Virus record (IMG/VR): IMGVR_UViG_3300028536_000015
Location: 9,365 to 73,364 of that record
Reading direction: 5' to 3' (one strand)
Length of the DNA: 64,000 bases
Source of the DNA: a virus
How positions within the stretch are numbered: the first letter of the stretch is position 1; the number at the start of each line of letters is the position of its first letter. This document shows positions 10,004 to 34,035 of this stretch, one piece after another. Both the position numbers and the translations under genes were made by a program. The notes under the pieces are model-generated. The model ran no database searches. It saw only the letters and a program-made list of their open reading frames with translations, and had not been told where the DNA came from.

Positions 10004-10028
10004 TTAATCCCGCATCAAGAAGAAAGTA

Positions 10029-11708: not shown

Positions 11709-11717
11709 GACTTCCTC

Positions 11718-15332: not shown

Positions 15333-15338
15333 GAGGGG

Positions 15339-19997: not shown

Positions 19998-20257
19998 TGT
20001 CTTCCCTCCAGTTCATCCATGATTTGCATGGCGCGGAATGTCTCTTCGTATTCCTTGCAGAGACCTTCTACCCTATCCCGACTTACCTTTTGTTCCCGGT
20101 CCCGGTATAGTATTTCTTCCCTCATAGCTTCGAATTCTACGTAGTTATGTCTCGCTATGTTTTCTTTCTTCATACGCCATGCACTGAACATCATAATCAA
20201 ACCAACCGACATCATAAAGATGAACACGGTACAAAAGAGCACAATCAAAACGCTCAT
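19994..20257 (-). CDS. Hypothetical membrane-anchored protein
   Basis: N-terminal hydrophobic segment; ATGA coupling. Confidence 0.55.
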   Translation of the reverse strand: MSVLIVLFCTVFIFMMSVGLIMMFSAWRMKKENIARHNYVEFEAMREEILYRDREQKVSRDRVEGLCKEYEETFRAMQIMDELEGRQ

Positions 20258-20691
20258 AGCAGGTTCAAGCTCCTCTTGATCGCCATGATATCAGCGCCGA
20301 GCTTGCCTTTCGCCAGCTCTTTCACGCGCTCGATAGAACTGACGATCGTTGAACGGTCACGGCCTCCTAAGCGGGAAGCAATCTGAGGTATCGACAGGCT
20401 GGTATGCTGACTGGCAATGTAGGCAATAACATGACGGGCGCAGACGATCTTCACACCACGACGCGCTGAGATAATATCCAGCATGGACACTTTATAATAT
20501 TTGCACACTTTCCGAAAGATGTCCTTGAACGTGATGGACTTCGGATCGATCAGGAAATCATAGTCGTCTTCTTCGATCTGGATCGGTGGGGGCGCAGGCT
20601 CTTCCTGAGGGACCAGCTTGGCTGCATCGGCAATCCTCCCGCGCCGCTCCTTGTGTTCTCTCTGAAGCTTTTGCAGGTACGTCTCGGTCAT
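20254..20691 (-). CDS. DnaA C-terminal (domain IV) HTH-like protein
   Basis: VCKYYKVSMLDIISARR...ARHVIAYI...SIPQIASRLGGRDRSTIV matches DnaA domain IV. Confidence 0.85.
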   Translation of the reverse strand: MTETYLQKLQREHKERRGRIADAAKLVPQEEPAPPPIQIEEDDYDFLIDPKSITFKDIFRKVCKYYKVSMLDIISARRGVKIVCARHVIAYIASQHTSLSIPQIASRLGGRDRSTIVSSIERVKELAKGKLGADIMAIKRSLNLL

Positions 20692-20975
20692 TGGATAAAC
20701 TGCTGTTCGCCCCCTTCGAAGGCCGGCTTGTCGAAGTTAATCAGCTTGGTGACAACCTCCGTCATCTCCTGAAGGGCTCCGCGTTTATCATCGTTGCAGT
20801 CGATGATATAAGCCGCAAGAAATGACAGAGCGCACATCACATCTCTTGCGCTCATCCCCTCTACCATCTCGATAAGATTAGCCGTGATCTCTCCGACTTT
20901 TTGATCGTCGTCGTGGAACATCTTGCTGACCGACTTGATGAACTCTGCCCTGTTATTGAAATCGAACTTAGCCAT
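20688..20975 (-). CDS. Hypothetical protein
   Basis: Start MAKFDF with GGAG RBS. Confidence 0.55.
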   Translation of the reverse strand: MAKFDFNNRAEFIKSVSKMFHDDDQKVGEITANLIEMVEGMSARDVMCALSFLAAYIIDCNDDKRGALQEMTEVVTKLINFDKPAFEGGEQQFIQ

Positions 20976-21448
20976 TGAGTTTCTCCAGACTTCCCACAAA
21001 GGTTCCACCGATTTCCGCACCTTTGGTATCAAGTTCGTTGAACGGCGATAGAAAAACTTCACCACCCTCAGGTCGATTGATGACATACTGGCCCATACGC
21101 TTGTCACCCTTGCGGTCTTCAGCAGTAATCTGGGATGACTTCGATGCGGTCGGGACATTCGCTAGGCATGACGCCTGACAAGTAATCGTCGCGCCCACGC
21201 GTGACACCCCAGGCTTCAGCCATGAAGCCGACGACATGAGCATCGACTTCCTTGGCCTTCGCCTGGATGAACTTGAAGAGTTCCTGCTTCTCACCGGGAG
21301 TACCCGAAAACTGGGTGATAACGGGAATGATCTCCTTGTCGCTGACGATGATCCACATCGGCATGACTTCACCATTTTTATCGAAGCAGTCCTTGGAGAA
21401 TTCAGCCAGATGCTTCAGCATCTCCTCTGCGTTCTTGATGTCGCTCAT
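20968..21448 (-). pseudogene. Hypothetical gene apparently split by a one-base frameshift near 21133
   Basis: Removing one C joins ...PSECPDRIEVI to QITAEDRKGDKRMGQYVINR..., giving one ORF coupled to both neighbours. Confidence 0.5.
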
Positions 21449-21768
21449 TTCAGGTTCTCCTTCATCTTCTCAAAAAAGACCGCACCGGCACCCTTCTGCA
21501 AATCTCCGGTGTCCCTTTCGGATACCTTCTCGGAAATCTTGGTCGCGGCGGCTAGCATGATCGCAAGCGTCTTCTCGGGATTACTGGAGCAATAGAGCAC
21601 GTAGGCAAGTCCCAAGGACAGCGCCAAGGCGACATCGGCTGGCGTCGTGCTGGTCGTGATCATGCTGGACATCTGATCGAGCGCAGTCCTGGCGGATTGC
21701 GGGAACTTGCCCATGTATTCCGGATCAAGCGCATCATGCATGACCTTCTTCATTTCATCTGATTTCAT
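21445..21768 (-). CDS. Hypothetical protein
   Basis: Coupled ORF. Confidence 0.6.
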   Translation of the reverse strand: MKSDEMKKVMHDALDPEYMGKFPQSARTALDQMSSMITTSTTPADVALALSLGLAYVLYCSSNPEKTLAIMLAAATKISEKVSERDTGDLQKGAGAVFFEKMKENLK

Positions 21769-22079
21769 TTTCCTTTTCCCTCTTGTACAAGATTTTCATA
21801 AAGTTCGATAGATTGCATCGTGTCTTCGTATTCGAAGGCGGCTCTGTCCATATTGGAATTGGACTTGCCGATCATGCCTTTTTCAAGCGCGAGTATCTCA
21901 CTGATGATTGCTGCTTGTTGCCCTGGGGTTGGCATATTATACAGGTCATTCATCTTCTGATGATACGTATCTTTGCCCCATTCAGTATGAAACAGACTTG
22001 AAATAGGTGCAACCGATGAGGAGCCTTTGGCGCCCACGTTAATTGAGCCTCTCGTCCTTGGTCGAGCTTGCTTCATCAA
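21765..22079 (-). CDS. Hypothetical protein (start uncertain)
   Basis: Fills the gap in the minus-strand array. Confidence 0.45.
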   Translation of the reverse strand: MMKQARPRTRGSINVGAKGSSSVAPISSLFHTEWGKDTYHQKMNDLYNMPTPGQQAAIISEILALEKGMIGKSNSNMDRAAFEYEDTMQSIELYENLVQEGKGK

Positions 22080-22317
22080 GGAAGTCCACGTCCTCAGCGC
22101 CGGCTTCGATGATCTGTTCGTAGATGTATTCGGCGATCGCCCTGGAGGCGTTGAACAAGCCCTCCTGGCTTTCCTCCTTCATGTCTTCGAGGCACTCGCG
22201 AGGAGATTTACCCTTTGGGCGCGCGGTTCCTGTGAGACCCTCGACGATCCGGATCGCCATCTCGGCTTGATCCAGCTTGATCGCGATGATCTTCTTCTCT
22301 TTGGTTTCCTTGGTCAT
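22039..22317 (-). CDS. Hypothetical protein
   Basis: AGAGGGAA RBS upstream. Confidence 0.6.
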   Translation of the reverse strand: MTKETKEKKIIAIKLDQAEMAIRIVEGLTGTARPKGKSPRECLEDMKEESQEGLFNASRAIAEYIYEQIIEAGAEDVDFLDEASSTKDERLN

Positions 22318-22377
22318 TAGCTTTTCCCTCTGAGACTAGACGTGGATACTAGACACAGAATGTGGTTATTTAAGGAT

Positions 22378-22713
22378 TTAATATCCCAGTTCTTCTGCAA
22401 GATTTGCATATATATCATACTCGGCGTCGTCGGCCGCGAACTTCTTGCTGAGCTTCTTCAGGCGAAGGGCATGCTTACGACCGGCGGCAAAGCCACTATT
22501 CCAAGATGCATGGCGTCCATTTTTCCGGCACGCTTTCTGAAATTCATCCGAAGTGTAGTAATCGTAACGTGCGATGATATCACCCATGCTGGGCCTATCC
22601 AGCATCTTATAGGGATTTTCTTTTGGCATCTTACAGGGATTGGTCCCGGAGTTATATCCGCGCTGCCAAGCCTTTGATCTAGGAATAGGTTTTCTTGCGG
22701 ACTTCATCGACAA
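22378..22713 (-). CDS. Hypothetical protein, weakly Rmf-like
   Basis: AWQRGYNSG...NPY...WNSGF pattern. Confidence 0.5.
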   Translation of the reverse strand: MSMKSARKPIPRSKAWQRGYNSGTNPCKMPKENPYKMLDRPSMGDIIARYDYYTSDEFQKACRKNGRHASWNSGFAAGRKHALRLKKLSKKFAADDAEYDIYANLAEELGY

Positions 22714-22987
22714 CCCACTGACGGTTCTTTTGCGCGGCGAGCACTCTTTCGTCGCCAGCTATTTCATGCATCTCACTCGATGTCAGATGACGTAGACCAT
22801 AGTCTTCGAACGCAGCGATATTGCCGCAATAGACACAGACCGAGATATCTCCAGGGACAGGCATGGCATGTTCGGCCGTGGTGCTGGTTGCCATGTCCAA
22901 GTCTTTGCCGCAATCAAGGCACTTGATCTCAGTTATCTTTGTAGTGTTCCCGACTTTCATATGCCCTCCTATCTTGCTCCAATTCAT
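22679..22987 (-). CDS. Hypothetical zinc-finger-like protein
   Basis: CLDC and CVYC motifs. Confidence 0.6.
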   Translation of the reverse strand: MNWSKIGGHMKVGNTTKITEIKCLDCGKDLDMATSTTAEHAMPVPGDISVCVYCGNIAAFEDYGLRHLTSSEMHEIAGDERVLAAQKNRQWVVDEVRKKTYS

Positions 22988-23123
22988 TGGTCTCTACCAG
23001 CCGGCTCTTGATATCTCGTCTTACGGCCTGTCTCTCGCCTTTCCAGAAAGGTCGTTTGACCCACTTAAGATGCTTCCACCATTCCGGCGATGAGGTCAGA
23101 ATTCCCTTCTTCTTGGTTGCCAT
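22929..23123 (-). CDS. Hypothetical protein
   Basis: GGAGG RBS; WWKHLK...FWKGER. Confidence 0.5.
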   Translation of the reverse strand: MATKKKGILTSSPEWWKHLKWVKRPFWKGERQAVRRDIKSRLVETNELEQDRRAYESREHYKDN

Positions 23124-23373
23124 TTAGTTCCTCCATGATTTCGATAGCGCGCATGGTTTCATCATATCCAGAGCTATCCATAACGAGAGGATAGCAGATA
23201 TGACCTTCAGCGATATCAAGAGCTTTATTGAGAAACATCGCATCCTCATCGCCTTGTTCAAGGCAGCCGTGTTCTTTAGCTTGGTTCCAAAACTCCAGGT
23301 AAATCTTTTGGGCTTGACGCTGTTCTGGTGAGCGACGCCAACGAGCAAGGGCATCATCATATAACTTACCCAT
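23065..23373 (-). CDS. Hypothetical protein
   Basis: GAGGAG RBS. Confidence 0.5.
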   Translation of the reverse strand: MGKLYDDALARWRRSPEQRQAQKIYLEFWNQAKEHGCLEQGDEDAMFLNKALDIAEGHICYPLVMDSSGYDETMRAIEIMEELNGNQEEGNSDLIAGMVEAS

Positions 23374-23587
23374 TGGATATCTCCTCGATCAGTTGATTGA
23401 TCATGTCTTGCTCTTGATCCCATTCGGTCATGCCGCGAATTTGGGTATCGGCGCATTCCCAACCATGATCCCAACGGCGCCATTTGTGTATAGACCTTGT
23501 GCGGCGTGGATTAGCATCACGCGGCTTGCCGTTGTGGCGAGCGCGGTAGCCATCGTACCACCATCGATTATGTCCCTCGGTCGGCAT
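23366..23587 (-). CDS. Small Rmf-like protein
   Basis: GYRARHNGKPRDANP...WDHGW pattern. Confidence 0.5.
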   Translation of the reverse strand: MPTEGHNRWWYDGYRARHNGKPRDANPRRTRSIHKWRRWDHGWECADTQIRGMTEWDQEQDMINQLIEEISNG

Positions 23588-23591
23588 GGTC

Positions 23592-23801
23592 TCATCTCAA
23601 GAAGTCGTCTATGGCTGCGATCAGGTCCTCGACGTAGGAGCTGCCCCAGTCTTTCGCGATGGTTCTGGACTTCAGCAGCACGAGGAACTCAGAAAGCATC
23701 GCGCGGCTTTTGGCAGTAGGCGAAGTTACCAGCGCATGGAAATTAGCCTCGTTGCCTCCAGCGGCGACGTGAGGCATTTGCTGTTTGGCGGGAGTTACCA
23801 T
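23592..23801 (-). CDS. Hypothetical protein
   Basis: Coupled ORF. Confidence 0.5.
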   Translation of the reverse strand: MVTPAKQQMPHVAAGGNEANFHALVTSPTAKSRAMLSEFLVLLKSRTIAKDWGSSYVEDLIAAIDDFLR

Positions 23802-24409
23802 TGCAGGTCCTTCATTTCGAGTTCAGCTAGACACACAAATCTTGTTCCTTCGATGACCGCATCAAAAGACTTATGGTGGTGACCGTAGACCCAGAGTTTT
23901 GGTTTATGGACTTCCCAGAGTTTCTGTAAAGAAATTTGCGTGATGGATTTATCGTCCCAATGGTGCGAGTGCATCATGGGGATAATGCTCAAGGGGCAGT
24001 CGTGGGTGACCATGACGGTTGGCTTATAAGAGTTATATCTCGCCATGAGAGTTTCGAACTGCTCGGAAGACAACTCTTCGTTTTTCCACCAGGAGAAGTC
24101 TTCGACGCGGTACATATGGTCGATTGAGAACGCGCCGCCGATAAGCATAACTCCGTCGTCGTAAGTTCCGTCAGGTATCCACTGGGTGTGACGTGCGCAG
24201 ACATCGGGGTTATCGTGGTTGCCTCGGATAAATCTTGCGTTGGTTTCGACCATGAGGTCATAAGGCGGGTTTGTTTGGAACTCGCCATGGGGCCAGCGCC
24301 GGAACCCGATGCCCATGTCACCGACCTGAATGGTGCTCGGGGAAGACCTTATGAGTTTCTTATACTGTTGGTACTTTCCATGGACATCGCCGATGAAGGT
24401 GGCTTGCAT
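23795..24409 (-). CDS. Calcineurin-like metallophosphoesterase
   Basis: GDVHG, QVGD, RGNHD, THDCP, GHHH motifs. Confidence 0.9.
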   Translation of the reverse strand: MQATFIGDVHGKYQQYKKLIRSSPSTIQVGDMGIGFRRWPHGEFQTNPPYDLMVETNARFIRGNHDNPDVCARHTQWIPDGTYDDGVMLIGGAFSIDHMYRVEDFSWWKNEELSSEQFETLMARYNSYKPTVMVTHDCPLSIIPMMHSHHWDDKSITQISLQKLWEVHKPKLWVYGHHHKSFDAVIEGTRFVCLAELEMKDLQW

Positions 24410-24417
24410 GGTAGTCC

Positions 24418-25272
24418 CTAGAGGATGGGGCGTTGGAAGAGATAAGGTTCTTTGGGGATGACGAGGTTGGCGCGTTGGGTCAGGGGCTTGGCGAGGATTT
24501 CCATGGGAAGTAGTTTTTCTTGGGAGACCAAGAAACTCTCACCCAAGAGTTTGCGCAGCTTGGTGGGGTCGCTGGTGCCGTGGGTCTGGATCAGATGGCG
24601 CATGGTGAGATATCGGCTGTTGAAGTACATGTAGTGGGTTCCTTCTTCGAGCGCGAAGGGTTTGAAACCAGCACCAATGAAGGAGCCTCCGCTGAAACCC
24701 AGGTTGGGGTTGATGAACGTGAATAGGATTTTTGTAGAAAAGTTTTTTATGAGATGACTTGAAAGGCGTTTGGTAAAGTGACTGAAGGTATTTGCGGGAG
24801 CCCATCGGAACGCAAAGAAGCGCGTGTAGGTGAAGGCTTCTGCTGGAACTATTTTATCTTTGATCTTGTCTATGACGTGAGCGAGATCACACAGAGCTAC
24901 ACTACCGATGCAGACGATCTTGCCGCTGGTTTTATCGAGGTAGCCAAAATGGAACCCGGGTCGATAGGACCCAATATAGTGGAAGTTTTCGTGGAGTTTT
25001 TTTGCTATGGTTTCATCTAACTTAATGAACTCCAGATGGTCGAGGGTCAGTTCAGTTCGCGGGGGTGCTAGGTGATGCGCATAGTTCTTGGTTCGTGCTT
25101 GCAGCAAAGCCGCTAGGCGGAACATCTCGTCTCTGAAATCGCCTGGGCCGGGGACCCCGCCATCGGCAGAAAGACGGGGGATGTGGAGTAAGGTTTGGGA
25201 ACGCAGCGCAAGAGGATCGATATTGTGCATTGCGGCACATTCGTCTACCTCGTGCTGATCTAAGACAGTCAT
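24418..25272 (-). CDS. Mom-like (GNAT-fold) putative DNA modification protein
   Basis: HENFHYIG...TRFFAFRWAPANTFS...TFINPNLGFSGGSF resembles the Mom-family HY...R....P.N..S...SY.DP..G..G..Y layout. Confidence 0.55.
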   Translation of the reverse strand: MTVLDQHEVDECAAMHNIDPLALRSQTLLHIPRLSADGGVPGPGDFRDEMFRLAALLQARTKNYAHHLAPPRTELTLDHLEFIKLDETIAKKLHENFHYIGSYRPGFHFGYLDKTSGKIVCIGSVALCDLAHVIDKIKDKIVPAEAFTYTRFFAFRWAPANTFSHFTKRLSSHLIKNFSTKILFTFINPNLGFSGGSFIGAGFKPFALEEGTHYMYFNSRYLTMRHLIQTHGTSDPTKLRKLLGESFLVSQEKLLPMEILAKPLTQRANLVIPKEPYLFQRPIL

Positions 25273-25529
25273 AACAGTTCCTCCCACAGTTCCATGGCGC
25301 GCAATGTCTCCTGATACTCATCTGCTGCCTCCCTGAATACGTCCTTCCCCACTCCTAGATGCTCGTTATAACAGTGCCAGAGCAGCTCGTGGTTGAGCCT
25401 GTCATACCATTCAGTCGTGTCCTTAAGCTCTTGGAACCTCTGAAAAATAGCGGTGTGATCCAGAAGCGGCAGCGCCAGGATCAAGTTGTAAATCTCTTCA
25501 AACGCCGCGCTCTCAGATGTTCGTGACAT
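25269..25529 (-). CDS. Hypothetical protein
   Basis: AGAGGGAA RBS; coupled to the next gene. Confidence 0.6.
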   Translation of the reverse strand: MSRTSESAAFEEIYNLILALPLLDHTAIFQRFQELKDTTEWYDRLNHELLWHCYNEHLGVGKDVFREAADEYQETLRAMELWEELL

Positions 25530-25573
25530 CAGGGTTCCCTCTCATAGGATTGTGGCACAATAAGGGTGAGTGG

Positions 25574-25834
25574 TCATTCATCCAAAAATCTGATACTCTC
25601 ATCGTCAATCACAACCGGACACACTGCGGGTTTCAATCGGGTTTTCTTCCGCAATCGATACGCCTTCATGTAAGCCGCCCTTGCCCGCTTCCGCGATGGC
25701 TTCGGGAAACTCCCGTCCGCAAGCCGGTCCAGGAACTCCTGGCATAGCCGCTTGATCCTGGGGACTAAGCTAGTATCCCTGAAGAACTCAGCCTCTCTCC
25801 TAATCTCTTCATTCGTCATTCTGTAACCCATCAC
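25574..25834 (-). CDS. Hypothetical basic protein
   Basis: RAAYMKAYR pattern; first gene of the leftward array. Confidence 0.5.
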   Translation of the reverse strand: MMGYRMTNEEIRREAEFFRDTSLVPRIKRLCQEFLDRLADGSFPKPSRKRARAAYMKAYRLRKKTRLKPAVCPVVIDDESIRFLDE

Positions 25835-26046
25835 TCATGTTGCTGTAGCCAGTTACATATCGTCTGGCGCAGGTACAACAAGGGTTCAATAGAATTTTTT
25901 ATAAAGAGTCGGGAGACCAAAGAAGTCTCAGACCCCGCCGGCCCTTTCCCTAGCGGCCCTGCCCCCGGCCTGGGTCCCTTTCCCATATCATACTACCTCA
26001 CCCTATAGCCCTAGGGGCGCCCCAGTGCATAGGCACATCACACATG

Positions 26047-26059
26047 CAAGCCATTGATA
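26047..26059. promoter_or_regulatory. IHF consensus site
   Basis: CAAGCCATTGATA is the reverse complement of WATCAA-N4-TTR. Confidence 0.55.
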
Positions 26060-26078
26060 TCATTGATGTATCGCAACG

Positions 26079-26106
26079 TAGTTCCATAATAGATGTTATG
26101 CGAACT
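26079..26106 (-). other. dif-like XerC/XerD recombination site
   Basis: AGTTCGCATAA-CATCTA-TTATGGAACTA: 11-6-11 layout with CGCATAA and TTATG arms. Confidence 0.8.
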
Positions 26107-26549
26107 GTGATGTGGACACGTGTGGGTGCGTGGAGATGGGGAAGAGCGCGGACAGACTACGTATTGCCCTATCTTCCTGCTCGATAGTCTTGGATATCTT
26201 ATCTGTGCCTAGGGAGGCACGAGAGAGCGGGACAACAGGTCTTATGCATCTATTGTGCATCTCTAGCACACCCTCTGTAGGGGCTTTGCAGGGGTAGGTG
26301 TGCGGGGAAAATGTTGCGCTGGGGTCTAAGCTCGGGAGAGCGTTGCGCGCCCTGGTGCGCCTGGAGACATGCACAAATGCATTGCTGCTATGCGTCAGGC
26401 AATTATACCCGGATAGCTTAGCAGCTCTGGTGACTGTGAACATTGTTCACTCATAGCTCCTATGCAATTATGCATGGATTGCTTGCACTTAGCAAGAGCT
26501 ATGTTTGTTTGCATACCTGCTATGCGTTTGCCCCACTAACCCAATTTGT

Positions 26550-26950
26550 ACAAAGGCGTATGTACATCGGGTGAGGCGAGGGCTTGGTGCTCTCGCGGAG
26601 ATACCCGATACCCTTGGATTGAGCCTCCCGCCTGATTGGCGCGGGACACCAGCGAGGTGCAGCTAGCACCATATCGCGGCCAAGTGGCGAACTATAAGCC
26701 ACAGCGCTCCAGCCCTTACGGTTTCGCACTTGCGATAACCCTGGCGACACTAGCGACCAACAGTCCGTTAGTGACTGTGTTAGAGTAGGGGCATGTTCTA
26801 CATGCTGGCGAGGGCTTTCGAGCTAGTAGCCAACCGAGGGTAGCACGGCGGGACCGAAAATCGGGTAGCACTCCATTGCGAGTGTGTGGCGCGGCCACAA
26901 TACCTAAAAGTCCTCTCAAGGCAGCGCCTCTCGACCGTGGCCTATTCCTT
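26550..26950 (+). ncRNA. Large multi-stem structured RNA candidate, family not recognised
   Basis: Five nested long-range helices and several local hairpins, G-U pairs favouring the plus strand, no credible ORF. Confidence 0.65.
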
Positions 26951-27239
26951 GAGATGATACCAAGTTTTGCATTGCACTTAACATGGTCACAATGAGCTTG
27001 GAACGCAGGCTAGCGCTTGCGAAAGGTAAACAGCCGCTTCTCACGAGCCTGACGCTTTCGCCGCACTGCTGGCGCTTACAAGCTCTTCCCTTTTCCTCTT
27101 AGACTACCGCTAATGTTACCTAGTGGGGCTAGCTCGGAACTACATTCCAGGCTGGCCTTACTGCGAAGCATTACGCTTCAGACATGAGAAAGCAAGAAAA
27201 TGCATTCTCATGCTTTTTCTTGAGAGGGAAAACTATACC

Positions 27240-27419
27240 ATGGTCGCAGATCAACGCAAAGGTGCGCGTGCTCGTGCTCGGAACCGTATCAACACCATGT
27301 TGGACAATATGGTTGCCGCCAGCGAAACACCGCAAACCGCCACGTTCTCTAACGCCGCATGTTCCTCCGATATGGAGCATATGCGTTGGGCCGATGATGG
27401 CGGGCGACATCACGACTAA
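27240..27419 (+). CDS. 59-aa hypothetical protein
   Basis: AGAGGG RBS; its stop codon begins repeat copy 2. Confidence 0.55.
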   Translation: MVADQRKGARARARNRINTMLDNMVAASETPQTATFSNAACSSDMEHMRWADDGGRHHD

Positions 27420-27490
27420 TGTTTCGGCATGGGCAGGGAATTATACCTGCCCATTGCGAAGCATTATCGCTTCACAAGAGGGAAATTACC

Positions 27491-27679
27491 ATGACTGACA
27501 AAGGGATGCACACCGCAAGCGCCGGACATGGCCAGGATTGGGGGATTGATAATCTCTCAACTGCCCATGATCACGGGCGCGTTGTTCCGCCCATCGCCTA
27601 TCAGACGCCGGATGTGACTGTCTATGATATCGGTCACGAAAACGACGACCTGATCACGTCAGGTGATACCAATGTCTGA
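27491..27679 (+). CDS. Hypothetical protein
   Basis: AGAGGG RBS after repeat copy 2. Confidence 0.55.
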   Translation: MTDKGMHTASAGHGQDWGIDNLSTAHDHGRVVPPIAYQTPDVTVYDIGHENDDLITSGDTNV

Positions 27680-27743
27680 TGAAGGTACTGCGCTTCTGGC
27701 GCTGATGATCCTCATCGCCTTTACATTCGTTGTCTTGCTCTAA
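27672..27743 (+). CDS. 23-aa hydrophobic peptide
   Basis: MSDEGTALLALMILIAFTFVVLL with AGGTG RBS; its stop begins repeat copy 3. Confidence 0.45.
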   Translation: MSDEGTALLALMILIAFTFVVLL

Positions 27744-27804
27744 TGTTTCGGCATGCAGCATTCGTGCTGCATAGCGAAGCATTACGCTTCAAGAGGGAAA
27801 GACT

Positions 27805-28368
27805 ATGCCAACAATCGAGTTTAGCAATGCATTCGACGCGACAAACAAGCGCGTTCTGTCCGAAGTGTTCGCTATCGTCATCAAGAAACTTGATCTCACT
27901 GAAGATTTCAAGGTCAAGGTCTCGATGGAGTTTATGGATAACAGAAGCCTTTATGCGCGGGTTGCGCGGGGAGGCGAAAAGCTGTTCCTGATGGAAATGA
28001 ACAGCAACGGCTTCAACCTATTCGACGCAACTGCCGCGTTTGGACACGAGCTGATCCACGTGCAGCAGCACATCAAGGGTTGGTTGCGCGTCAAGAATAC
28101 AGGCAAGGTTTGGTCCGATGGGCTCTATTGGAAGGGCGAATTCTATTCCGCTCTTCATCTGATGCTCAACGGCTCCAGCAACTGCGTTCCTTGGGAAATC
28201 GACGCTTGGAAACGCATGGGTGAGCTGCACAAATACGTGGTCTCTCATTTGCCGCCGGCTGATGCCGCGCTGATCGATATCACCAAATCGACCGGCCTTA
28301 AAGATACTTGGAATGCAGACTATGCATCTTGGAAAGAGTGCGAAGAGATTTTTTCTCTTAAACACTAA
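27805..28368 (+). CDS. Zincin-like metallopeptidase
   Basis: HELIHVQQ (HExxH) and PWEIDA. Confidence 0.75.
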   Translation: MPTIEFSNAFDATNKRVLSEVFAIVIKKLDLTEDFKVKVSMEFMDNRSLYARVARGGEKLFLMEMNSNGFNLFDATAAFGHELIHVQQHIKGWLRVKNTGKVWSDGLYWKGEFYSALHLMLNGSSNCVPWEIDAWKRMGELHKYVVSHLPPADAALIDITKSTGLKDTWNADYASWKECEEIFSLKH

Positions 28369-28478
28369 ATCGCTTCTGTCCTGCCGCGTACCTAATAAGC
28401 CTTGAGGAAGGCTTCTCAGGCTTTCTCAAGTACGCGGCAGTGAGAAGCGATTAAGCTTCATGAAGAGGGAAACTTCAA

Positions 28479-28700
28479 ATGACCAAAGCAACAAGCAAGT
28501 CTTGGGATGAGGTTCATGCCGAGCGCGTGGCCTATCGGCGCGCTCACAATAACCAGCCCAATGGCTACCGGCCTGTTACGGAAGCGGAATTGCAGACGCA
28601 ACGGAAAGAACTGTTTAGCGAATTGGAACCGGATATCAATCCGGAAACCAAAATCGTGAGCATTCTCGATCCGAATTTCGGCAAGGTCAAAGCGGCTTAG
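28479..28700 (+). CDS. Hypothetical protein
   Basis: Between repeat copies 4 and 5; RBS present. Confidence 0.6.
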   Translation: MTKATSKSWDEVHAERVAYRRAHNNQPNGYRPVTEAELQTQRKELFSELEPDINPETKIVSILDPNFGKVKAA

Positions 28701-28774
28701 CTTTTCGACACTGCGGAGTTTAATCTCCGCAGCACGAAGCGCTGATGCTTCAAAAGAGGGAAAGAAATTCTACC

Positions 28775-28930
28775 ATGCAAATCTTCAGTGACAGTGACGA
28801 CTTGCCGATGAAGGCTGAAAAACGTGCCGAGACTTCATTGCTCAAATCCTTGTTTTACGAGGATGTTGCAATGAGCGCCGGCTGGGTCTTCATCATCCTG
28901 TGCGTTCTCGTGATTGCGGAGTGGGGCTGA
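28775..28930 (+). CDS. Small membrane protein
   Basis: C-terminal hydrophobic segment; RBS present. Confidence 0.5.
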   Translation: MQIFSDSDDLPMKAEKRAETSLLKSLFYEDVAMSAGWVFIILCVLVIAEWG

Positions 28931-29124
28931 TGAAAAAGATCAAAATCCCTCACCCTGTGCTCCAATGCCCAAAGGTCAGGAAGCGCCGCGTAGAAGCGGG
29001 TATTCTGATCGTTGTGTGCGTGGCGCTGGGCGCGCATTACATCATTCCGGACTACGAAGCTGTGATGAATTTCGCAGCCAGTTTTCTGTTCTGGCTTGAA
29101 CCGAAAATTGCGGTTGAAGTCTAA
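28930..29124 (+). CDS. Small membrane protein
   Basis: TGATG coupling; hydrophobic segments. Confidence 0.55.
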   Translation: MKKIKIPHPVLQCPKVRKRRVEAGILIVVCVALGAHYIIPDYEAVMNFAASFLFWLEPKIAVEV

Positions 29125-29234
29125 GCGTTTCGGCATGGGCTGGTTTATCCAGCCCATAGCGAAGCTCTTGAAGCTTTACATGAAAATGGTTGAGAAACCA
29201 TCCTCATGGTTTATCAATGGAGAGGGAAATACAA

Positions 29235-29390
29235 ATGGCTAAATGTGTTAAGAGCAAGCGTAACGGCAACATCATCAGGGTTTCTGATGAGGAAGCCGCG
29301 CGGCTTGTGAAAGAAAGCGATTTCGCATATGCGCCCAAGAGCGAGTATCGGGCATATATCGCCAAGACTGCCGAGGTGACCCATGCCTGA
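29235..29390 (+). CDS. Hypothetical protein
   Basis: MAKCVKSKRNGNIIRVSDEEAARLV; RBS present. Confidence 0.65.
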   Translation: MAKCVKSKRNGNIIRVSDEEAARLVKESDFAYAPKSEYRAYIAKTAEVTHA

Positions 29391-29550
29391 TATCAATGAT
29401 ATGATGGCCTGGGAAAACGGCGAAATGAATGAAGACCGCGAGGACAAGCTGTTCCAACAGCTTGTTGATAGCGGCTTGGCTTGGACGCTCCAGGGTATGT
29501 ATGGGCGTCGGGCATCGCAGCTATTGAGAGAACGGAGAATTCACCGTTAA
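29383..29550 (+). CDS. 55-aa conserved phage protein (not in ORF track)
   Basis: MPDINDMMAWENGEM...LFQQLVDSGLAWTLQGMYGRRA; the AWxLQGxYGR motif recurs in phage proteins. Confidence 0.7.
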   Translation: MPDINDMMAWENGEMNEDREDKLFQQLVDSGLAWTLQGMYGRRASQLLRERRIHR

Positions 29551-29612
29551 TGTTCATGTCCTGCCGCGTAAGCGCGGTAGTGATGAGCATTTGCTCAAAG
29601 AGGGAGAGACCT

Positions 29613-30026
29613 ATGTCTAAACACAATGTGAGAATGTTGAAAATGGATATCCATGAGACGCCCAAAGCGTTCAATATCAATGGTATCACATTTTCCAAAA
29701 AACGCCTTACTGAACTGTTCCCCGGCTGTGGATGCGACATCAAGACGTTCTATCGGCTAATGATTATCATGCCGTTCTTTGCGTCTCAAAAGAGCGTGGA
29801 AGAAGCCCCAACGGTTACAGGCAAATACGCCATCGCCAAGGCCAAACGGATTTTCGAAAACATCGGCCTGGATGACGCGTCTATTCTGCCGTTCATGCAG
29901 ATTGCGGCGCAACTCGGCGAGCTTCAAATCCCGGAATGCCTGGATGATATCACAGAACAGTGCCACGATCAGATTTGCGGCTGTGGCGCGAAGGTTTCAC
30001 CGGGTACCAAAAATACCCTTCATTAA
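29613..30026 (+). CDS. Hypothetical protein
   Basis: RBS after repeat copy 7. Confidence 0.6.
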   Translation: MSKHNVRMLKMDIHETPKAFNINGITFSKKRLTELFPGCGCDIKTFYRLMIIMPFFASQKSVEEAPTVTGKYAIAKAKRIFENIGLDDASILPFMQIAAQLGELQIPECLDDITEQCHDQICGCGAKVSPGTKNTLH

Positions 30027-30034
30027 CGGAGGGT

Positions 30035-30967
30035 ATGATGGACTTAGCTAAGAGCGCGATGCTAGTAAGCGTCAATATCGTGAATGGCGGATTGCTGGGA
30101 GAACGTAAAAACGCAAAAGCAACGGCCCTGATCCACAAGACCTATTCTATTGCTGATAAGCGTGCCAAAGCCAGCACGTTCTTGATTGACCGTAAGCATC
30201 CTAAAGTCAAAGCGGTTGTCGCAGCCTCACAACGCGTGCGCGAAGTCCTATATAAGTATACGCTATCATGGGGCGACGACAAAACGAGGCTTCTTTCGAT
30301 TTCCGTGCATGAGCTTTTCAGCAAGAAAATATCCGAAGCAGAGGCTGAATTGCGGGAGGCGTGGGATGAGTATCTCCATGTTTATCCGTCGTTGGTTGCC
30401 GATAGCGAGCGCAAGGAAAGCGGCTTAGGCGGCCTGTTTGATGCGTCTCAATATCCAAGCGTCAAGAAGGCCAGAGAGCTTTTTGCTTTTAAGCTCACCT
30501 ATTGGCCGGTTCCTAGCTCGGGTAACTTTGTTGCGGACATCGCCACGGAAGCAGCGGCAAAAGCCAAAGCTGATATGGCGCTGGAGATCGAGACCCGGCT
30601 CAAGACAAGCGCGCAAGAACTTGTCAATCGAGGGCGTGAAGCCGTTGCTACCTTGATGGAGCGGCTTCAGTCTTTCAATAAAAAGGCTGACGGCAAGATT
30701 ATTAAGGATAGCTTGATCAAAAACCTGGAAGAGGTTGCCCATCTGATCGAAGACATGAATATCACGGGAAATTCTGAGATTTATACCATGGCTCATAGGA
30801 TCAGGCGGCTTTCTAAGGTCAGCGCCGTAGGGTATCGAATGAGCCCTCAGTTTAGGGCTAATGGACTTTCTCTCGGGGAAGCCATCCTTAAAGAACAGAT
30901 CGACTTGGATACGCTCGATTTGGAAGTATCTGAAATGGTTGCAGAAGCAGGTGAATACGAGTTTTGA
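30035..30967 (+). CDS. DUF3150-like helical protein
   Basis: YTLSWGD..RLL and LGGLFDASQYPS...F motifs; linked to the AAA/vWA pair. Confidence 0.65.
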   Translation: MMDLAKSAMLVSVNIVNGGLLGERKNAKATALIHKTYSIADKRAKASTFLIDRKHPKVKAVVAASQRVREVLYKYTLSWGDDKTRLLSISVHELFSKKISEAEAELREAWDEYLHVYPSLVADSERKESGLGGLFDASQYPSVKKARELFAFKLTYWPVPSSGNFVADIATEAAAKAKADMALEIETRLKTSAQELVNRGREAVATLMERLQSFNKKADGKIIKDSLIKNLEEVAHLIEDMNITGNSEIYTMAHRIRRLSKVSAVGYRMSPQFRANGLSLGEAILKEQIDLDTLDLEVSEMVAEAGEYEF

Positions 30968-31121
30968 GTGCCTTAAAACTACCACATTATTATGGTTTAC
31001 AGAAAGCTTGAACGAGAGGGAATATGGAAATCTTCTTTATGCTCTACGCCTTAGGACAGGCGATGTTACTTGTTTTGTCCACAAGACGACTAGCGAAAAA
31101 CCCCCATCAGAAGGAATAGCA

Positions 31122-31301
31122 ATGCCAGCACCGTTACCGGATGATATCACGATTGATATCAAACTTTCTGTAGCCCGCGTCGCATGTGAGTTAGCCAAAA
31201 ACTATATCATAATGATGCAGGGTGATCCACGCGATAATCCGCACGGCGATAAGGTTTTAGCGGCCGTTTTGGATCAATTGGACGAAGCGTTGAAAGAATA
31301 A
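31122..31301 (+). CDS. Hypothetical protein
   Basis: AAGGA RBS; its stop begins repeat copy 8. Confidence 0.5.
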   Translation: MPAPLPDDITIDIKLSVARVACELAKNYIIMMQGDPRDNPHGDKVLAAVLDQLDEALKE

Positions 31302-31367
31302 GCTTTCATGTCCACTGGCTTACGAGCCAGTGAGATGAGCGCTTATGCTCAAAGAGGGAGACCTTAA

Positions 31368-32405
31368 ATGCTGAAATGCAAAATTACACAGCTTGCTGAC
31401 GTTGTGTATCCTTTGATCCACGCGAATATTCCCGTGATGATCAAAGGACCTACCGGGGTCGGCAAGTCTGCGGTGATCAATACGGAGATCATGTCCCGTA
31501 TCCGCACGGATTTCGGACAGGCTTCGAGGCTGCATGATATCAGGCTTTCCACAAAAGATATTGTGGATGGCACTGGCATGCCGCTGATCGATCGCGAGAA
31601 GATGGCCACCTATTGGACGCGGCCCGCGTTTGTTCCGGAAGATGACGGCGAAATGCATGTCATGTTCCTTGACGAGTTCGGCCATGCGAATGTTCAACTC
31701 CAGCAGATGTCTTATCAGTTGGTGTTGGATCGTTCGTGCGGCGGATATCCATTGCCCAAAAAGAACCGCATTATCCTTGGCTCGAACACCAGGGAAGACG
31801 GCGGCGGCGACAACAAGATGTTGAAGCCGCTGGAAAATCGTATGGCACATATCCAGGTGGAAGTCGATGAGATGGGCTTCATTGAGTTGATCAAGAAGTG
31901 GGGATGGGACAAGCGTCTGATTGCTTTCCTCAACCTGCGCCCTGAGTTGATCCATAAGGTGGACCCGAACCATCCGTCCTTTCCGACGCCGCGCTCTCTT
32001 GAGAACTTCAACAAAGTCCTTCAGGACCCGGCGCTGGCTCATTTGGACCCCAAGCCGCTCAAGTCTGTCCTGGAAAGCGCCGCGAGGTCTATCTTGGGCG
32101 AGGGGTTTGCGCATCAGTTCAGCACGTTCCTGGATCGTATCACCGCTGGTCTGCCCAAGATCGCAGATATCCTGGCGGACCCGACCAAGGCCAAGATGCC
32201 CGCTGATGCCCATTTCCAGTGGCTGATTGCCGGCACCATCTCGCGCAACATGAACGCCAAGAATGCCCCGGCGTTCGCCAAGTACTTGGCTCGCATGTCG
32301 CCTGACATTGCGTCCATGTGTGTTCATGATGCAATCTCGCGGGATCGTGCTTTGGGCGATGTTGTTTCGCTCAAGGCGCTGTTGTTGGAAGGATCGGGGA
32401 AGTAA
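31368..32405 (+). CDS. MoxR-like AAA+ ATPase
   Basis: GPTGVGKS, FLDE, PLENR, FPTPRS motifs. Confidence 0.9.
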   Translation: MLKCKITQLADVVYPLIHANIPVMIKGPTGVGKSAVINTEIMSRIRTDFGQASRLHDIRLSTKDIVDGTGMPLIDREKMATYWTRPAFVPEDDGEMHVMFLDEFGHANVQLQQMSYQLVLDRSCGGYPLPKKNRIILGSNTREDGGGDNKMLKPLENRMAHIQVEVDEMGFIELIKKWGWDKRLIAFLNLRPELIHKVDPNHPSFPTPRSLENFNKVLQDPALAHLDPKPLKSVLESAARSILGEGFAHQFSTFLDRITAGLPKIADILADPTKAKMPADAHFQWLIAGTISRNMNAKNAPAFAKYLARMSPDIASMCVHDAISRDRALGDVVSLKALLLEGSGK

Positions 32406-32406
32406 G

Positions 32407-32643
32407 ATGCAGGATTTATTTTATCTTCTTGCATCGATCTTTCTAATCTTGATGATGGCGTGGATGTTTAGCCGCTCAGGATTTGACGATAGCGACAAGA
32501 GCCGTAGCGAGCGTTCTGGTTTGATGATCTTCACGGATCACAAGACTGGTTGCCAATACGTTGGAACTATCCTTGGAGGTATTACTCCGCGCCTTACCTC
32601 GCAAGGTACTATTCTCTGTGTTTCCGAAGAGAAAAAAGATTGA
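32407..32643 (+). CDS. Small membrane protein (DUF6440-like)
   Basis: Hydrophobic segment followed by TDHKTGCQY...GGITPRL. Confidence 0.65.
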   Translation: MQDLFYLLASIFLILMMAWMFSRSGFDDSDKSRSERSGLMIFTDHKTGCQYVGTILGGITPRLTSQGTILCVSEEKKD

Positions 32644-32750
32644 CGTTTCCACTCATGGGCTTACGAGCCCATGCAGGAAGCGCCTAATGCTTTACATAAG
32701 AAAGCTTGAGTAAGCATTCTTATGGTTCATCAAGAAAGAGGGAGATATTA

Positions 32751-33980
32751 ATGTTTGGAATGAAACCGAATGCAATGCGGCGGATGCTTCTGGCGCGGGA
32801 GCGGATCGCGAGAAAGAACCCGTTCTTTGCATCCATCTTGTTCGGCGCCAATATCATCGAGAGCAAAAAGCATCAGACGATTTGGAGCGATGGATTGAAC
32901 ATCCTTTTCAATAAAGACTATGTTGAAGAGGGGAACAATGACAAATACATTGAGGGAGATGTCCTTCACTCCGTTCTACACTGTGCCTTGCTGCATCATC
33001 CTCGCAAGCGCTATCGCGATCCCAAGAGATGGAATGAAGCCTGCGACTATCCTGTCAACGCCGTGGTCAAGGACTACTTTCCTTTGTCCCCGGATGCCTT
33101 GACCAGCCAGAAGTATGGCGCCTTGGCACCGGAAGCTGTCTATGAACTGCTTCAGAGACAAGAAGAAAAGCAGCAAGGCAAAGGCAAGCCTCAGAAGTCC
33201 AAGGGTAAGCCTGAGAAGGGCGACAAAGGAGACGACAGTGGGCAGGGCGAGAACGATGAGAATGATCAGGACGATGGTGAGGGGCAGGAAAAAGAACAGC
33301 CCGGCACCATGTTTGAGCCTGACCCTGAGGATCAGGAACAGGATAGCGAGGAAAACGAGCGTCAGTGGAAAAGAGTTCTCACCGGCGCGATCGAGAAATC
33401 GCCTCCTGGGACCATGCCGGGAAGTCTCCAGCGCCTGATCCTGGATATCTTTCCAAAAGACAAGATCGATTGGAAGGACCTGATCCGGGATATGTCACGG
33501 GATGCCAAATCGAAGGCTACCAGAACGTGGCATCGGCCTAATCGGCGCCGCCTTGGCAATGATGAGTATATGCCGGGCTATGGCAACGATAACGTCTACA
33601 AGCTTGTCATGTGCCTGGATGTCTCGGGTTCGGTCAGTCAGCAAATGATCCAGGAAATGTGCGATGAGGCCGCAAGCCTTCTCGATCAGGACCTGGTCAC
33701 GAATGTTACGCTGATCTCCGTCGATACGCGCATTCAGAATGTCTTGGAGGCAACAACCGGCGAGGATATCAAGGGTTGGAACGCAGGGGGCGGGGGAGGA
33801 ACAGACTTCCGCAGCGCCATGGATACTATCGGCAAGATGGAGGATGTCATTGGCTGTATCTTTCTGACAGACATGGCCACGAGTTCCTTTGGTACCGAGC
33901 CCCCGTTTGGGGTAGTATGGGTCGATTGGAGCGGTGGTGGCAGCAAGGCGCCTTATGGGCGCACTGTTTCTTACCGCTGA
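32751..33980 (+). CDS. DUF2201-type metallopeptidase-like plus vWA domain protein
   Basis: HSVLH (HExxH-like, Glu absent), WNEACD..VN, acidic linker, DVSGS MIDAS, GGGGTDF, LTD. Confidence 0.85.
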   Translation: MFGMKPNAMRRMLLARERIARKNPFFASILFGANIIESKKHQTIWSDGLNILFNKDYVEEGNNDKYIEGDVLHSVLHCALLHHPRKRYRDPKRWNEACDYPVNAVVKDYFPLSPDALTSQKYGALAPEAVYELLQRQEEKQQGKGKPQKSKGKPEKGDKGDDSGQGENDENDQDDGEGQEKEQPGTMFEPDPEDQEQDSEENERQWKRVLTGAIEKSPPGTMPGSLQRLILDIFPKDKIDWKDLIRDMSRDAKSKATRTWHRPNRRRLGNDEYMPGYGNDNVYKLVMCLDVSGSVSQQMIQEMCDEAASLLDQDLVTNVTLISVDTRIQNVLEATTGEDIKGWNAGGGGGTDFRSAMDTIGKMEDVIGCIFLTDMATSSFGTEPPFGVVWVDWSGGGSKAPYGRTVSYR

Positions 33981-34035
33981 TGCTTAAACACAGAGGCTTA
34001 CAAGCCTCTGCATTAAGCACCATTAGGAGGGAAAC

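What the first reader, a model, noticed from the sequence alone, without database searches (positions are those of the whole stretch)
26550..26950. Roughly 400-nt ornate structured RNA candidate at the head of the early operon
Seen: nested long-range helices GAGGCG(26573)/CGCCTC(26925), GAGGGCT(26578)/AGTCCTC(26909), CTCGC-GGAG(26592)/CTCC..GCGAG(26871), TACCCGAT(26602)/ATCGGGTA(26860) and TACCCTTGG(26609)/CCGAGGGTA(26834). They enclose multibranch domains with TCCCGC/GCGGGA, GGTGC/GCACC, GTGGC/GCCAC, AGCCCT/AGGGCT, TCGCA/TGCGA, ACAGTC/GACTGT and GCATGT/ACATGC. There is no credible ORF. Known: phages carry large ncRNAs of unknown function such as GOLLD and ROOL. I do not recognise this one as those, or as RNase P, tmRNA or an intron. 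Inference: possibly a new large ncRNA class.
Basis: partly seen in the sequence, partly recalled or inferred. Interest (0 to 1): 0.8.

Follow-up and report, generated by a model that had tools for sequence, protein, structure and literature searches.

The report
New large structured phage RNA family
A gene-free stretch of a soil phage genome encodes a roughly 450-base RNA with a conserved, pseudoknotted fold that seven related phage sequences share and that matches no catalogued RNA family, so it looks like a new class of large phage RNA whose job is still unknown.

Summary
Window 26626-26859 (+) is the conserved core of a structured RNA. I found the same core in 7 other uncultivated phage or metagenome contigs. 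A covariance model built without the window recovers the window copy at 71.5 bits, E 1.3e-19.

- **Covariation:** across 8 sequences, 51 pairs in 11 helices, including a loop-to-strand pseudoknot, are 92.3% paired. 41 of 51 pairs change on both sides, and 0 of 500 shuffles reach this. Slid controls give 38-44% paired.
- **Known families:** Rfam 15 has no match in the window or in the relatives' RNA.
- **Coding:** rejected.
five of twelve are conserved, three clash with the conserved fold, and the four outer long-range helices are specific to the window and unsupported.
- **Setting:** the RNA follows a conserved operator-like block. A conserved tail comes next, then a hairpin of variable sequence and a C/U tract. 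The flanking small ORFs are not conserved.

My best reading is a discrete early ncRNA that acts as a folded RNA, probably in trans. A cis-acting antitermination leader is the main rival. I have no expression data, and the host is unknown, with hints of an alphaproteobacterium.

The parts
26379..26395 (.). Distal copy of an operator-like imperfect palindrome (GCAT-N-GC-ATGC type).
   Evidence: Direct repeat D3 with 26510-26527. The regex scan finds 1-2 copies upstream of the RNA in all 8 loci examined.
26483..26494 (.). Small palindrome that recurs inside the 3' tail of the RNA (26972-26983).
   Evidence: Repeat D10. An upstream copy is seen only in the window; relatives carry the 3' copy.
26511..26556 (+). 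Promoter-proximal conserved block: the proximal operator-like palindrome plus a conserved stretch just upstream of the RNA. The transcription start is not determined.
   Evidence: Conserved in alignments A1 and A10. blastn window against L002 and L004 matches 26510-26563 and 26452-26561. The sigma-70 scan finds no + strand site here.
26557..26625 (+). Variable 5' leader of the RNA, window-specific in sequence.
   Evidence: Length and sequence vary among relatives. Pairing with the 3' region is not above shuffles.
26626..26859 (+). Conserved structured core. Helices: Pa 26626-31/26641-46; Pb1 26651-55/26674-78; Pb2 26656-59/26667-70; pseudoknot 26662-66/26750-54; Pc 26684-88/26698-702; Pd 26761-66/26851-56; Pe 26775-82/26841-48; Pf 26788-90/26833-35; Pg 26791-95/26801-05; Ph 26814-16/26821-23.
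   Evidence: The leave-one-out model R2 gives 71.5 bits, E 1.3e-19, full length. 42 of 46 nested pairs and 5 of 5 pseudoknot pairs are canonical in the window.
26724..26735 (+). Small insertion hairpin (4 bp, 4-nt loop) between Pc and the 3' strand of the pseudoknot. It is shared only with L012.
   Evidence: Alignments A5 and A12.
26857..26952 (+). 3' domain of the window copy. It is divergent from the 3' domain of the relatives, which has a covarying long-range helix.
   Evidence: Alignments A7 and A8. The window row does not align beyond short motifs.
26953..26986 (+). Conserved 3' tail with a small hairpin (TGC-loop-GCA).
   Evidence: Conserved in all 8 rows of A7, including L032. Three invariant pairs in A8.
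26994..27085 (+). Long compound hairpin at the position where relatives carry a short hairpin of variable sequence. A terminator-like role is inferred.
   Evidence: Inverted repeat I18. The hairpin folds in the window and all 7 other sequences tested. The strict terminator scan flags L002 5229-5248 and L004 5436-5457, but neither the window nor L005.
27086..27100 (+). Conserved C/U-rich tract directly after the hairpin.
   Evidence: Conserved in all 8 rows of A7.
27165..27179 (+). 15-nt hairpin motif just upstream of the first downstream ORF (27184-27498), repeated exactly at 27776-27790.
   Evidence: Two exact + strand copies. In all, 6 matches at up to 3 mismatches against 2.07 expected.

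Best explanation
Window ~26557-27100 (+) encodes a member of a previously uncatalogued family of large (about 400-500 nt) structured phage RNAs.

Shown: a conserved core of about 230 nt folds into at least ten helices plus a pseudoknot. In the pseudoknot the loop of hairpin Pb pairs with a strand downstream of hairpin Pc. A closing helix, Pd, encloses a multi-branch domain (Pe, Pf, Pg, Ph). The loop and junction sequences are highly conserved.

Inferred: the RNA is transcribed rightward from a conserved, operator-guarded promoter block. It is the first product of the rightward (probably early) transcription unit. It ends at a hairpin of variable sequence followed by a conserved C/U tract. It then acts as a folded RNA, most likely in trans, by binding a host or phage macromolecule or by self-assembly early in infection. 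This is the general manner of the ornate phage RNAs GOLLD and ROOL, and the exact target is unknown.
For: **Homology**
- nhmmer profiles recover the element in relatives that were not in the seed, at E 4e-37 to 2.5e-25.
- A model built from the 7 other sequences finds only window 26626-26859 at high score: 71.5 bits, E 1.3e-19.
- A sequence-only HMM without the window finds 26634-26857 at E 4.6e-5.

**Structure**
- On the plain MAFFT alignment, RNAalifold predicts 53 pairs, and 35 of them have compensatory changes.
- On the model alignment, 92.3% of 401 cells are paired against 69.9% in shuffles. 41 of 51 pairs change on both sides against 21.6 in shuffles.
- The covariation score is 0.693 against 0.251, with 0 of 500 shuffles reaching any of the five measures. 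Slid partners give 38-44% paired and scores of 0.08-0.13.
- The pseudoknot was not part of the covariance model. It is still 95% paired, and all 5 of its pairs change on both sides.

**Strand**
- G-U cells number 26 against 7 A-C cells.
- Fold z is -3.39 on + and -1.19 on -.

**Not coding**
- Variable columns are even over codon phases: 37/66, 35/67, 34/66. At least 2 stops lie in every frame of the window, L002 and L004.

**Discrete gene**
- All 8 tail sequences folded have a hairpin just before the conserved C/U tract. Canonical terminator-like sites lie in L002 and L004.
- Relatives carry a recurring promoter-like motif between that hairpin and the next ORF.
- Flanking small ORFs are not conserved while the RNA is.

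**Not a known family**
-.
Against: - There is no expression evidence of any kind. Start, end and abundance are all inferred.
- No sigma-70-like promoter is found on the + strand upstream. The strict terminator scan finds nothing downstream of the RNA in the window or in L005. Terminator-like counts per region equal the shuffle expectation.
- The RNA lies between a promoter block and co-oriented genes, which fits a cis-acting leader equally well.
- There are only 8 sequences, in roughly 5 lineages. The model's effective sequence number is 2.55, and the alignment used for the final counts was fitted to the model.
- Single-sequence fold z-scores are modest: window core -1.93, L012 -1.44, L002 -0.63.
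- No partner protein was identified.
- The window copy is the most divergent member. Its 3' domain does not align with the others.
Confidence: 0.55

Rival explanations
1. It is a cis-acting leader of the rightward early operon. The nascent structured RNA modifies the transcribing RNA polymerase or switches between folds. This controls read-through of the hairpin/C-U-tract terminator(s) into the early genes. That would be processive antitermination in the manner of the HK022 put RNA, or attenuation.
For: The RNA sits directly between a conserved promoter/operator block and one or two terminator-like hairpins, ahead of co-oriented small ORFs. The window holds no copy of the promoter-like motif that relatives carry in front of their early genes. 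The window has duplicated and mutually exclusive pairing options: 26575-26585 = 26807-26817, 26838-26846 = 26863-26871, and both 26566-72 and 26860-67 are complementary to 26602-09. A put RNA is a cis element that suppresses pausing and termination in early phage genes (PMC9378689; abstract start seen in the listing).
Against: At about 400 nt with 11 helices and a pseudoknot, it is several times larger than put (put's size is recalled, not checked). By eye I found no segment that covaries with the terminator stems as an antiterminator would; this was not tested formally. Relatives have a promoter-like motif between the terminator and the first ORF. The first downstream ORF is not conserved. 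The alternative pairings in the window are not conserved.
Confidence: 0.3
2. The conservation reflects a DNA-level element, such as a replication origin, packaging site or regulatory region, and the pairings form in single-stranded DNA or not at all.
For: Operator-like palindromes and repeats crowd the upstream region. The phage encodes a DnaA C-terminal-domain protein and a DnaB-like helicase elsewhere.
Against: 41 of 51 pairs keep pairing through changes on both sides, including a pseudoknot. This is not expected of protein-binding duplex DNA. The excess of G-U over A-C (26 against 7) is strand-specific. The repeats lie upstream of the core, not inside it.
Confidence: 0.04
3. The window copy is a decaying remnant. 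Its many extra helices are chance products of a G+C-rich sequence, even if the family is functional in other phages.
For: The window scores lowest with both models: 120.5 bits against 165-211, and 71.5 against 163-210. The clade-B-only HMM does not find it. Its 3' domain has diverged.
Against: 42 of 46 nested pairs and 5 of 5 pseudoknot pairs are canonical in the window. That matches or beats L029, L018, L004 and L002. Where its sequence differs, hairpins are replaced by other hairpins, as with Pg and Ph.
Confidence: 0.06
4. It is a protein-coding gene on the minus strand. Open frames of 110-160 aa there occur in L005, L012 and L029.
For: Minus-strand ORFs of 127, 160 and 110 aa. The L005 and L012 products align at 55% identity over 78 aa.
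Against: There is no third-position bias: 37/66, 35/67 and 34/66 variable columns by phase. In the window, L002 and L004 every frame has at least 2 stops. There is no Pfam hit at E below 0.06. The protein similarity is what any frame of a conserved nucleotide block would give.
Confidence: 0.01

Closest known systems
ROOL and GOLLD (large ornate RNAs of phages and prophages)
   Same: They are large, phage-borne and non-coding, with elaborate covariation-supported secondary structure including pseudoknots. No protein partner is known and their function is unknown (PMC12286853; passages read).
   Different: There is no match to either Rfam model. This RNA is smaller, with a core of about 230 nt and a total of about 450. 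GOLLD is often over 800 nt. It is not next to tRNA islands: the window has no tRNA, and in L005 one tRNA lies about 0.9 kb upstream. It sits at a fixed place behind an operator-guarded promoter block. Oligomerisation was not tested.
HK022 put RNA (cis-acting antitermination element)
   Same: It lies just downstream of a phage early-type promoter region and upstream of terminators and early genes. It is an RNA that could act without a dedicated protein (PMC9378689; abstract start only).
   Different: This RNA is much larger and pseudoknotted, where put is two stem-loops (recalled). Sequence relatedness to put could not be assessed, because I do not know whether Rfam holds a put model. An effect on RNA polymerase was not tested.
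Riboswitch and T-box-type leaders
   Same: A structured 5' element is followed by a hairpin plus a U-rich tract, ahead of co-oriented genes.
   Different: No Rfam riboswitch or T-box hit. The downstream genes are not a conserved functional class. No conserved antiterminator alternative was seen by eye. The core is larger than the riboswitch aptamers I recall.
phi29 pRNA and P4 CI RNA (small phage RNAs made from early leaders)
   Different: No Rfam match of any kind in the region. Size and fold are unrelated. This phage has a terminase-portal packaging module.

Membership tests
   R2, built from 7 other sequences, matches window 26626-26859 at 71.5 bits, E 1.3e-19, model positions 1-211 of 211.
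   In the window, 42 of 46 nested pairs are canonical (3 non-canonical, 1 deleted) and 5 of 5 pseudoknot pairs.
   The window row does not align in A7. Only a weak 5-bp equivalent was found by eye.
GOLLD, ROOL, OLE, HEARO, raiA-type large RNAs (Rfam 15) | Match to the family covariance model at or above its gathering score. | tested here: not met
   0 matches in the 64-kb window. At E<=10 over 26000-27500 there are only 6 unrelated rows of 13.7-17.8 bits. 0 matches in L005 3850-4500. None of the 3 gathering hits in the 8 related loci lies in the RNA.
RNase P, tmRNA, group I/II introns, 6S, riboswitches, T-box (Rfam 15) | Match to the family covariance model. | tested here: not met
   Same searches. 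ARAGORN finds no tRNA or tmRNA in the window.
put-type cis antiterminator RNA | Located downstream of an early promoter and upstream of the terminators it overrides. | tested here: inconclusive
   The position fits, but neither promoter nor terminator function is shown.
put-type cis antiterminator RNA | The nascent RNA binds RNA polymerase and suppresses termination in cis. | not testable with these tools
   This needs in vitro transcription or reporter assays.
Riboswitch | An aptamer coupled to an expression platform with mutually exclusive terminator and antiterminator pairing, upstream of a conserved class of genes. | tested here: not met
   The first downstream ORF (27184-27498) has no relative in viral contigs and none in L002, L004, L005, L012 or L032. 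No antiterminator segment covarying with the terminator stems was seen. That check was by eye only.

The most novel reading that the evidence does not exclude
The RNA is an RNA-only machine that a clade of soil phages makes first on infection. It could be a new ribozyme or a self-assembling homo-oligomer of the ROOL/GOLLD kind. It could instead be a giant put-like element that reprograms host RNA polymerase without any protein. In every case it is built on a pseudoknotted core unrelated to any catalogued RNA.
Probability: 0.2. Interest if true: 0.9.

Novelty: categorically new. Interest (0 to 1): 0.72.

Why it matters
Large, intricately folded bacterial and phage RNAs are rare. Each class found so far (RNase P, group I/II introns, OLE, GOLLD, ROOL) has turned out to be a ribozyme, a ribonucleoprotein scaffold or an unexpected RNA-only assembly.

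This family has a compact core of about 230 nt. Its pseudoknot is supported by compensatory changes in every pair. It sits at a fixed, regulated position at the start of a phage transcription unit, and it matches none of the 4227 Rfam families.

That makes it a tractable target for chemical probing, cryo-EM and genetics. It could also show what a phage needs an RNA for in the first minutes of infection. The caveats are that only eight sequences are known, all uncultivated, and that function, host and expression are unknown.

Tried and rejected
**Searches that led nowhere**
- blastn (distant) of 26400-27200 and megablast of 20000-34000 against 50,697 phage records gave no match.
- The search for related loci with the two small flanking ORFs gave no relatives.
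- An exact-pattern scan of viral contigs with the promoter-block motif found only L002's contig.
- A scan with a 20-nt degenerate core motif found 3 stretches in viral contigs (2 real, 1 chance, L034) and 14 in genome contigs. None of the 14 holds the RNA. nhmmer recovered only the 34-nt seed region of L035 at E 0.01, and cmsearch found none.
- The last viral scan, with the tail motif, was too loose. Further members in IMG/VR may therefore have been missed.
- R1 against 151 alphaproteobacterial genomes gave one marginal 16.7-bit row and nothing else. The RNA was not found in those searched.

**Expression:** The look-up of sequencing runs for 24000-30000 (rna) listed no RNA holder. This is no evidence either way.

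**Partner protein:** tblastn of the window's ORFs in 20000-43500 against L002, L004, L005, L012 and L032 was the test. It found no convincing protein present with the RNA and absent from L032. Only two ORFs of 55-73 aa showed a patchy pattern.

**Neighbouring ORFs:** the upstream minus-strand ORFs of five loci share no invariant column. Pfam and PHROGs gave nothing for the immediate neighbours.

**Leader pairing:** leader-to-3' pairing by duplexfold against shuffles was not significant except in L005.

**L032 and L014:** these carry a different ~450-nt sequence at the same locus. Its fold z is -1.03, and neither model matches it. I could not tell whether it is a second RNA class.

**N4-like idea:** the AAA ATPase's best phage hits are N4-like genomes at 26-33% identity. 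No giant virion RNA polymerase ORF exists in the record, so I dropped the idea.

**Literature:** three accepted searches returned nothing describing this RNA. This covers only the held open-access library. Supplementary files were not consulted and could hold unnamed candidate motifs.

Full report
**Where the window lies.** The window is bases 9365-73364 of a 73,364-nt IMG/VR virus record rated 98% complete. Minus-strand ORFs run leftward from about 26443, and plus-strand ORFs run rightward from 27184. The stretch 26443-27184 holds no ORF longer than 76 aa.

- The 401-nt + strand folds to -168.1 kcal/mol. That is z -3.39 against 100 dinucleotide shuffles, and none of them folds as well.
- The reverse complement gives z -1.19.

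**Relatives.** DNA searches of isolated phages found nothing, and the small flanking ORFs have no relatives. I therefore used the AAA ATPase gene 4.4 kb downstream (31368-32405) as a handle.
- It retrieved L002 (81% aa), L004 (80%), L005 (62%) and L032 (60%) from viral contigs.
- It also retrieved 26 metagenome loci.
- An nhmmer profile built from the window, L002, L004 and L005 then found the element in L029, L012, L025 and L018. None of these was in the seed, and E ran from 4e-37 to 2.5e-25 (repeated).
- L003 and L010 (= L002), L033 (= L004) and L122 (= L005) are the same contigs fetched again.
- L032 and L014, which are near-identical to each other, share the upstream block and the 3' tail. 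They carry a different ~450-nt sequence in between.

**Structure.**
- RNAalifold on the plain MAFFT alignment of 8 sequences predicted 53 pairs, 35 of them with compensatory changes.
- I trimmed to the core (A5) and wrote out ten nested helices, Pa, Pb1, Pb2, Pc and Pd-Ph. Pc is split by an alignment gap and scores it as two segments. I added a pseudoknot between the Pb loop and a strand just 5' of a conserved CCAAC motif.
- From this I built model R1, with 212 positions and 46 pairs.
- cmsearch over 45 sources (402,859 nt, both strands) matched 8 of 45 at E<=1. These were exactly the eight seeds, with no spurious hit.

**Testing the window without circularity.**
- I rebuilt the model from the seven other sequences (R2). 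It finds window 26626-26859 full-length at 71.5 bits, E 1.3e-19.
- A second row at 29042-29157 (-) scores 20.2 bits. R1 did not report it at E<=1, and I regard it as noise.
- A sequence-only HMM without the window finds 26634-26857 at E 4.6e-5. A clade-B-only HMM finds L002 and L004 but not the window.

**Final pair counts.** These are from the R2 alignment of all eight sequences with the pseudoknot added. It covers 51 pairs, scored there as 11 helix segments with the pseudoknot, and 401 cells.

| Measure | Observed | Shuffled mean |
|---|---|---|
| Cells paired | 92.3% | 69.9% |
| Pairs changed on both sides | 41 of 51 | 21.6 |
| Covariation score | 0.693 | 0.251 |

- No shuffle out of 500 reached any of the five measures.
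- Sliding the partners by 1-3 columns gives 38-44% paired and scores of 0.08-0.13.
- The earlier R1-based alignment gave 88.0%, 39 of 51 and 0.601.
- The pseudoknot columns were not constrained by the model. They are still 95% paired, and all five pairs change on both sides.

Two caveats apply to these counts.
- The eight sequences form about five lineages. L012 and L025 are close, as are L029 and L018, and the effective sequence number is 2.55.
- The alignment was fitted to the nested structure.

**The window copy.**
- 42 of 46 nested pairs are canonical, 3 are non-canonical and 1 is deleted. All 5 pseudoknot pairs are canonical.
- Where the window differs from the consensus, hairpins are replaced by other hairpins. 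Ph is a 3-bp stem with a UUCG loop.
- Three clash with Pd, Pe, Pf or Ph: TACCCTTGG/CCGAGGGTA, ACAGTC/GACTGT and AGCCCT/AGGGCT.
- The four outer helices joining the leader to 26860-26930 have no conserved counterpart. Leader-to-3' duplex energy is z -1.27 in the window and between -0.45 and +1.45 in five others. Only L005 reaches -2.92.
- The relatives' 3' domain has a long-range helix with some covariation (11 of 26 pairs). The window's 3' domain does not align with it.

**Strand and coding.**
- G-U cells outnumber A-C cells 26 to 7 (29 to 12 on the earlier alignment). This points to the + strand.
- Minus-strand ORFs of 110-160 aa exist in L005, L012 and L029 and align with one another.
- Even so, variable columns are spread evenly over codon phases (37/66, 35/67, 34/66).
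- Every frame has at least 2 stops in the window, L002 and L004, and Pfam finds nothing.

**Setting.**
- *Upstream:* all eight loci examined carry one or two copies of an operator-like imperfect palindrome. One copy sits at a fixed distance from the RNA. The sigma-70 scan finds no + strand promoter there, so the start site is unknown.
- *Downstream of the core:*
  - Next come a conserved tail with a small hairpin, a hairpin whose sequence differs in every lineage, and a conserved C/U-rich tract.
  - The strict terminator scan flags this hairpin in L002 and a second one in L004. It flags nothing in the window or L005.
  - Relatives then show a recurring motif 25-40 nt ahead of early start codons. 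The window does not have it.
- *Neighbouring ORFs:* these are not conserved, so the RNA is the conserved island of this region.
- *The phage:*
  - It has a terminase and portal, a nonulosonic-acid sugar cluster, and a YqaJ/ERF recombination pair.
  - It also has a GcrA homolog and a DnaA C-terminal-domain protein.
  - L002 carries a match to a Rhizobiales sRNA model. Together with GcrA, this hints at an alphaproteobacterial host. It is a hint only, and the link between GcrA and Alphaproteobacteria is recalled.
- R1 was not found in 151 genomes of that class, apart from one marginal row.

**Comparison with known RNAs.** Rfam 15 (4227 families) gives 0 matches at gathering scores in the window and only six rows of 13.7-17.8 bits at E<=10 in 26000-27500. 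It gives 0 in L005's RNA and none in the RNA of the eight related loci. The nearest analogues are analogues in kind, not in sequence.
- ROOL and GOLLD are described as large, pseudoknotted RNAs of phages and prophages, of unknown function, often near tRNA islands. They form RNA-only nanocages (PMC12286853; passages read).
- The HK022 put RNA is a cis element that suppresses pausing and termination in early genes (PMC9378689; abstract start only).
- Three accepted literature searches found no description of this RNA.

**Mechanism.** What is shown is a conserved, pseudoknotted RNA fold on the + strand at a fixed, apparently regulated place. What is inferred is the following.
- It is a discrete early transcript ending at the hairpin and C/U tract.
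- It acts as a folded RNA in trans.
- The reasons are its own terminator-like end in every lineage, the promoter-like motifs ahead of the next genes in relatives, and the lack of any conserved downstream gene.
- A further reason is that its complexity is typical of ribozymes, scaffolds and ornate RNAs.

I put this at about 0.55. The cis-acting leader or antitermination model gets about 0.3, and the rest goes to minor rivals. I could not obtain expression data; no RNA run was listed.

Noticed in passing
L002:6648-6755 (+): A relative carries a full-length match to Rfam Atu_At1, a Rhizobiales sRNA, at 83.4 bits against a gathering score of 60. It lies in the phage's early region, about 1.4 kb downstream of its copy of the RNA. 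The window has no such match.
   Followed up: no
window 40680-41204 (-) and 20254-20691 (-): The phage encodes a GcrA cell-cycle-regulator homolog (PF07750, E 2.4e-22) and a protein with the DnaA C-terminal helix-turn-helix (PF08299, E 1.4e-18). These suggest an alphaproteobacterial host and interference with its cell cycle.
   Followed up: partly
window 8343-17679 (+): A sugar-modification cluster: GNAT acetyltransferase, two methyltransferases, an oxidoreductase, a cytidylyltransferase-aminotransferase fusion (742 aa), a PseB-like dehydratase, a DegT-type aminotransferase and NeuB. This looks like a nonulosonic-acid pathway carried by a phage.
   Followed up: no
window 27165-27179 and 27776-27790 (+): Two exact copies of a 15-nt hairpin motif (5-bp stem, 5-nt loop) lie just upstream of start codons. 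Similar hairpins precede ORFs in L002 (~5695) and L005 (~5060). The role is unknown: promoter, processing site or translational operator.
   Followed up: partly
L002:5324, L004:5537 and 5837, L005:4788, L012:5461, L025:452 and 1484, L029:493 and 793: The motif TTAGGCAATTT recurs 25-40 nt upstream of early start codons in relatives, often just after a hairpin. It may be a phage-specific promoter. It is absent from the window and from L032.
   Followed up: partly
L032:5290-5790 and L014:~1350-1850: These carry the same operator block and the same 3' tail, hairpin and C/U tract, but a different ~450-nt sequence in between. It matches neither model, and its fold z is -1.03. It could be a second RNA class in the same cassette position.
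   Followed up: partly
window 26575-26585 = 26807-26817; 26838-26846 = 26863-26871; 26566-72 and 26860-67 against 26602-09: There are exact direct repeats inside the window RNA, and two segments are each complementary to the same leader segment. This gives mutually exclusive pairings. The pattern is not conserved in relatives and is unexplained.
   Followed up: partly
window 29042-29157 (-): A weak second match of the leave-one-out model R2: 20.2 bits with a rough E of 1.3e-4, 116 nt against a 211-position model. R1 did not report it at E<=1, so it is probably noise.
   Followed up: no
L005:3048-3118 (+) and L002:18941-19025 (-): tRNA genes occur in two relatives. The one in L005 lies about 0.9 kb upstream of its RNA. 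The window has none.
   Followed up: no
window 31368-33980 (+): A MoxR-like AAA ATPase (weak Pfam hits) is followed by a DUF2201 metallopeptidase/VWA protein. This pair is conserved in all relatives, and its best isolated-phage hits are N4-like genomes at 26-33% identity. The record itself has no giant virion RNA polymerase ORF.
   Followed up: partly
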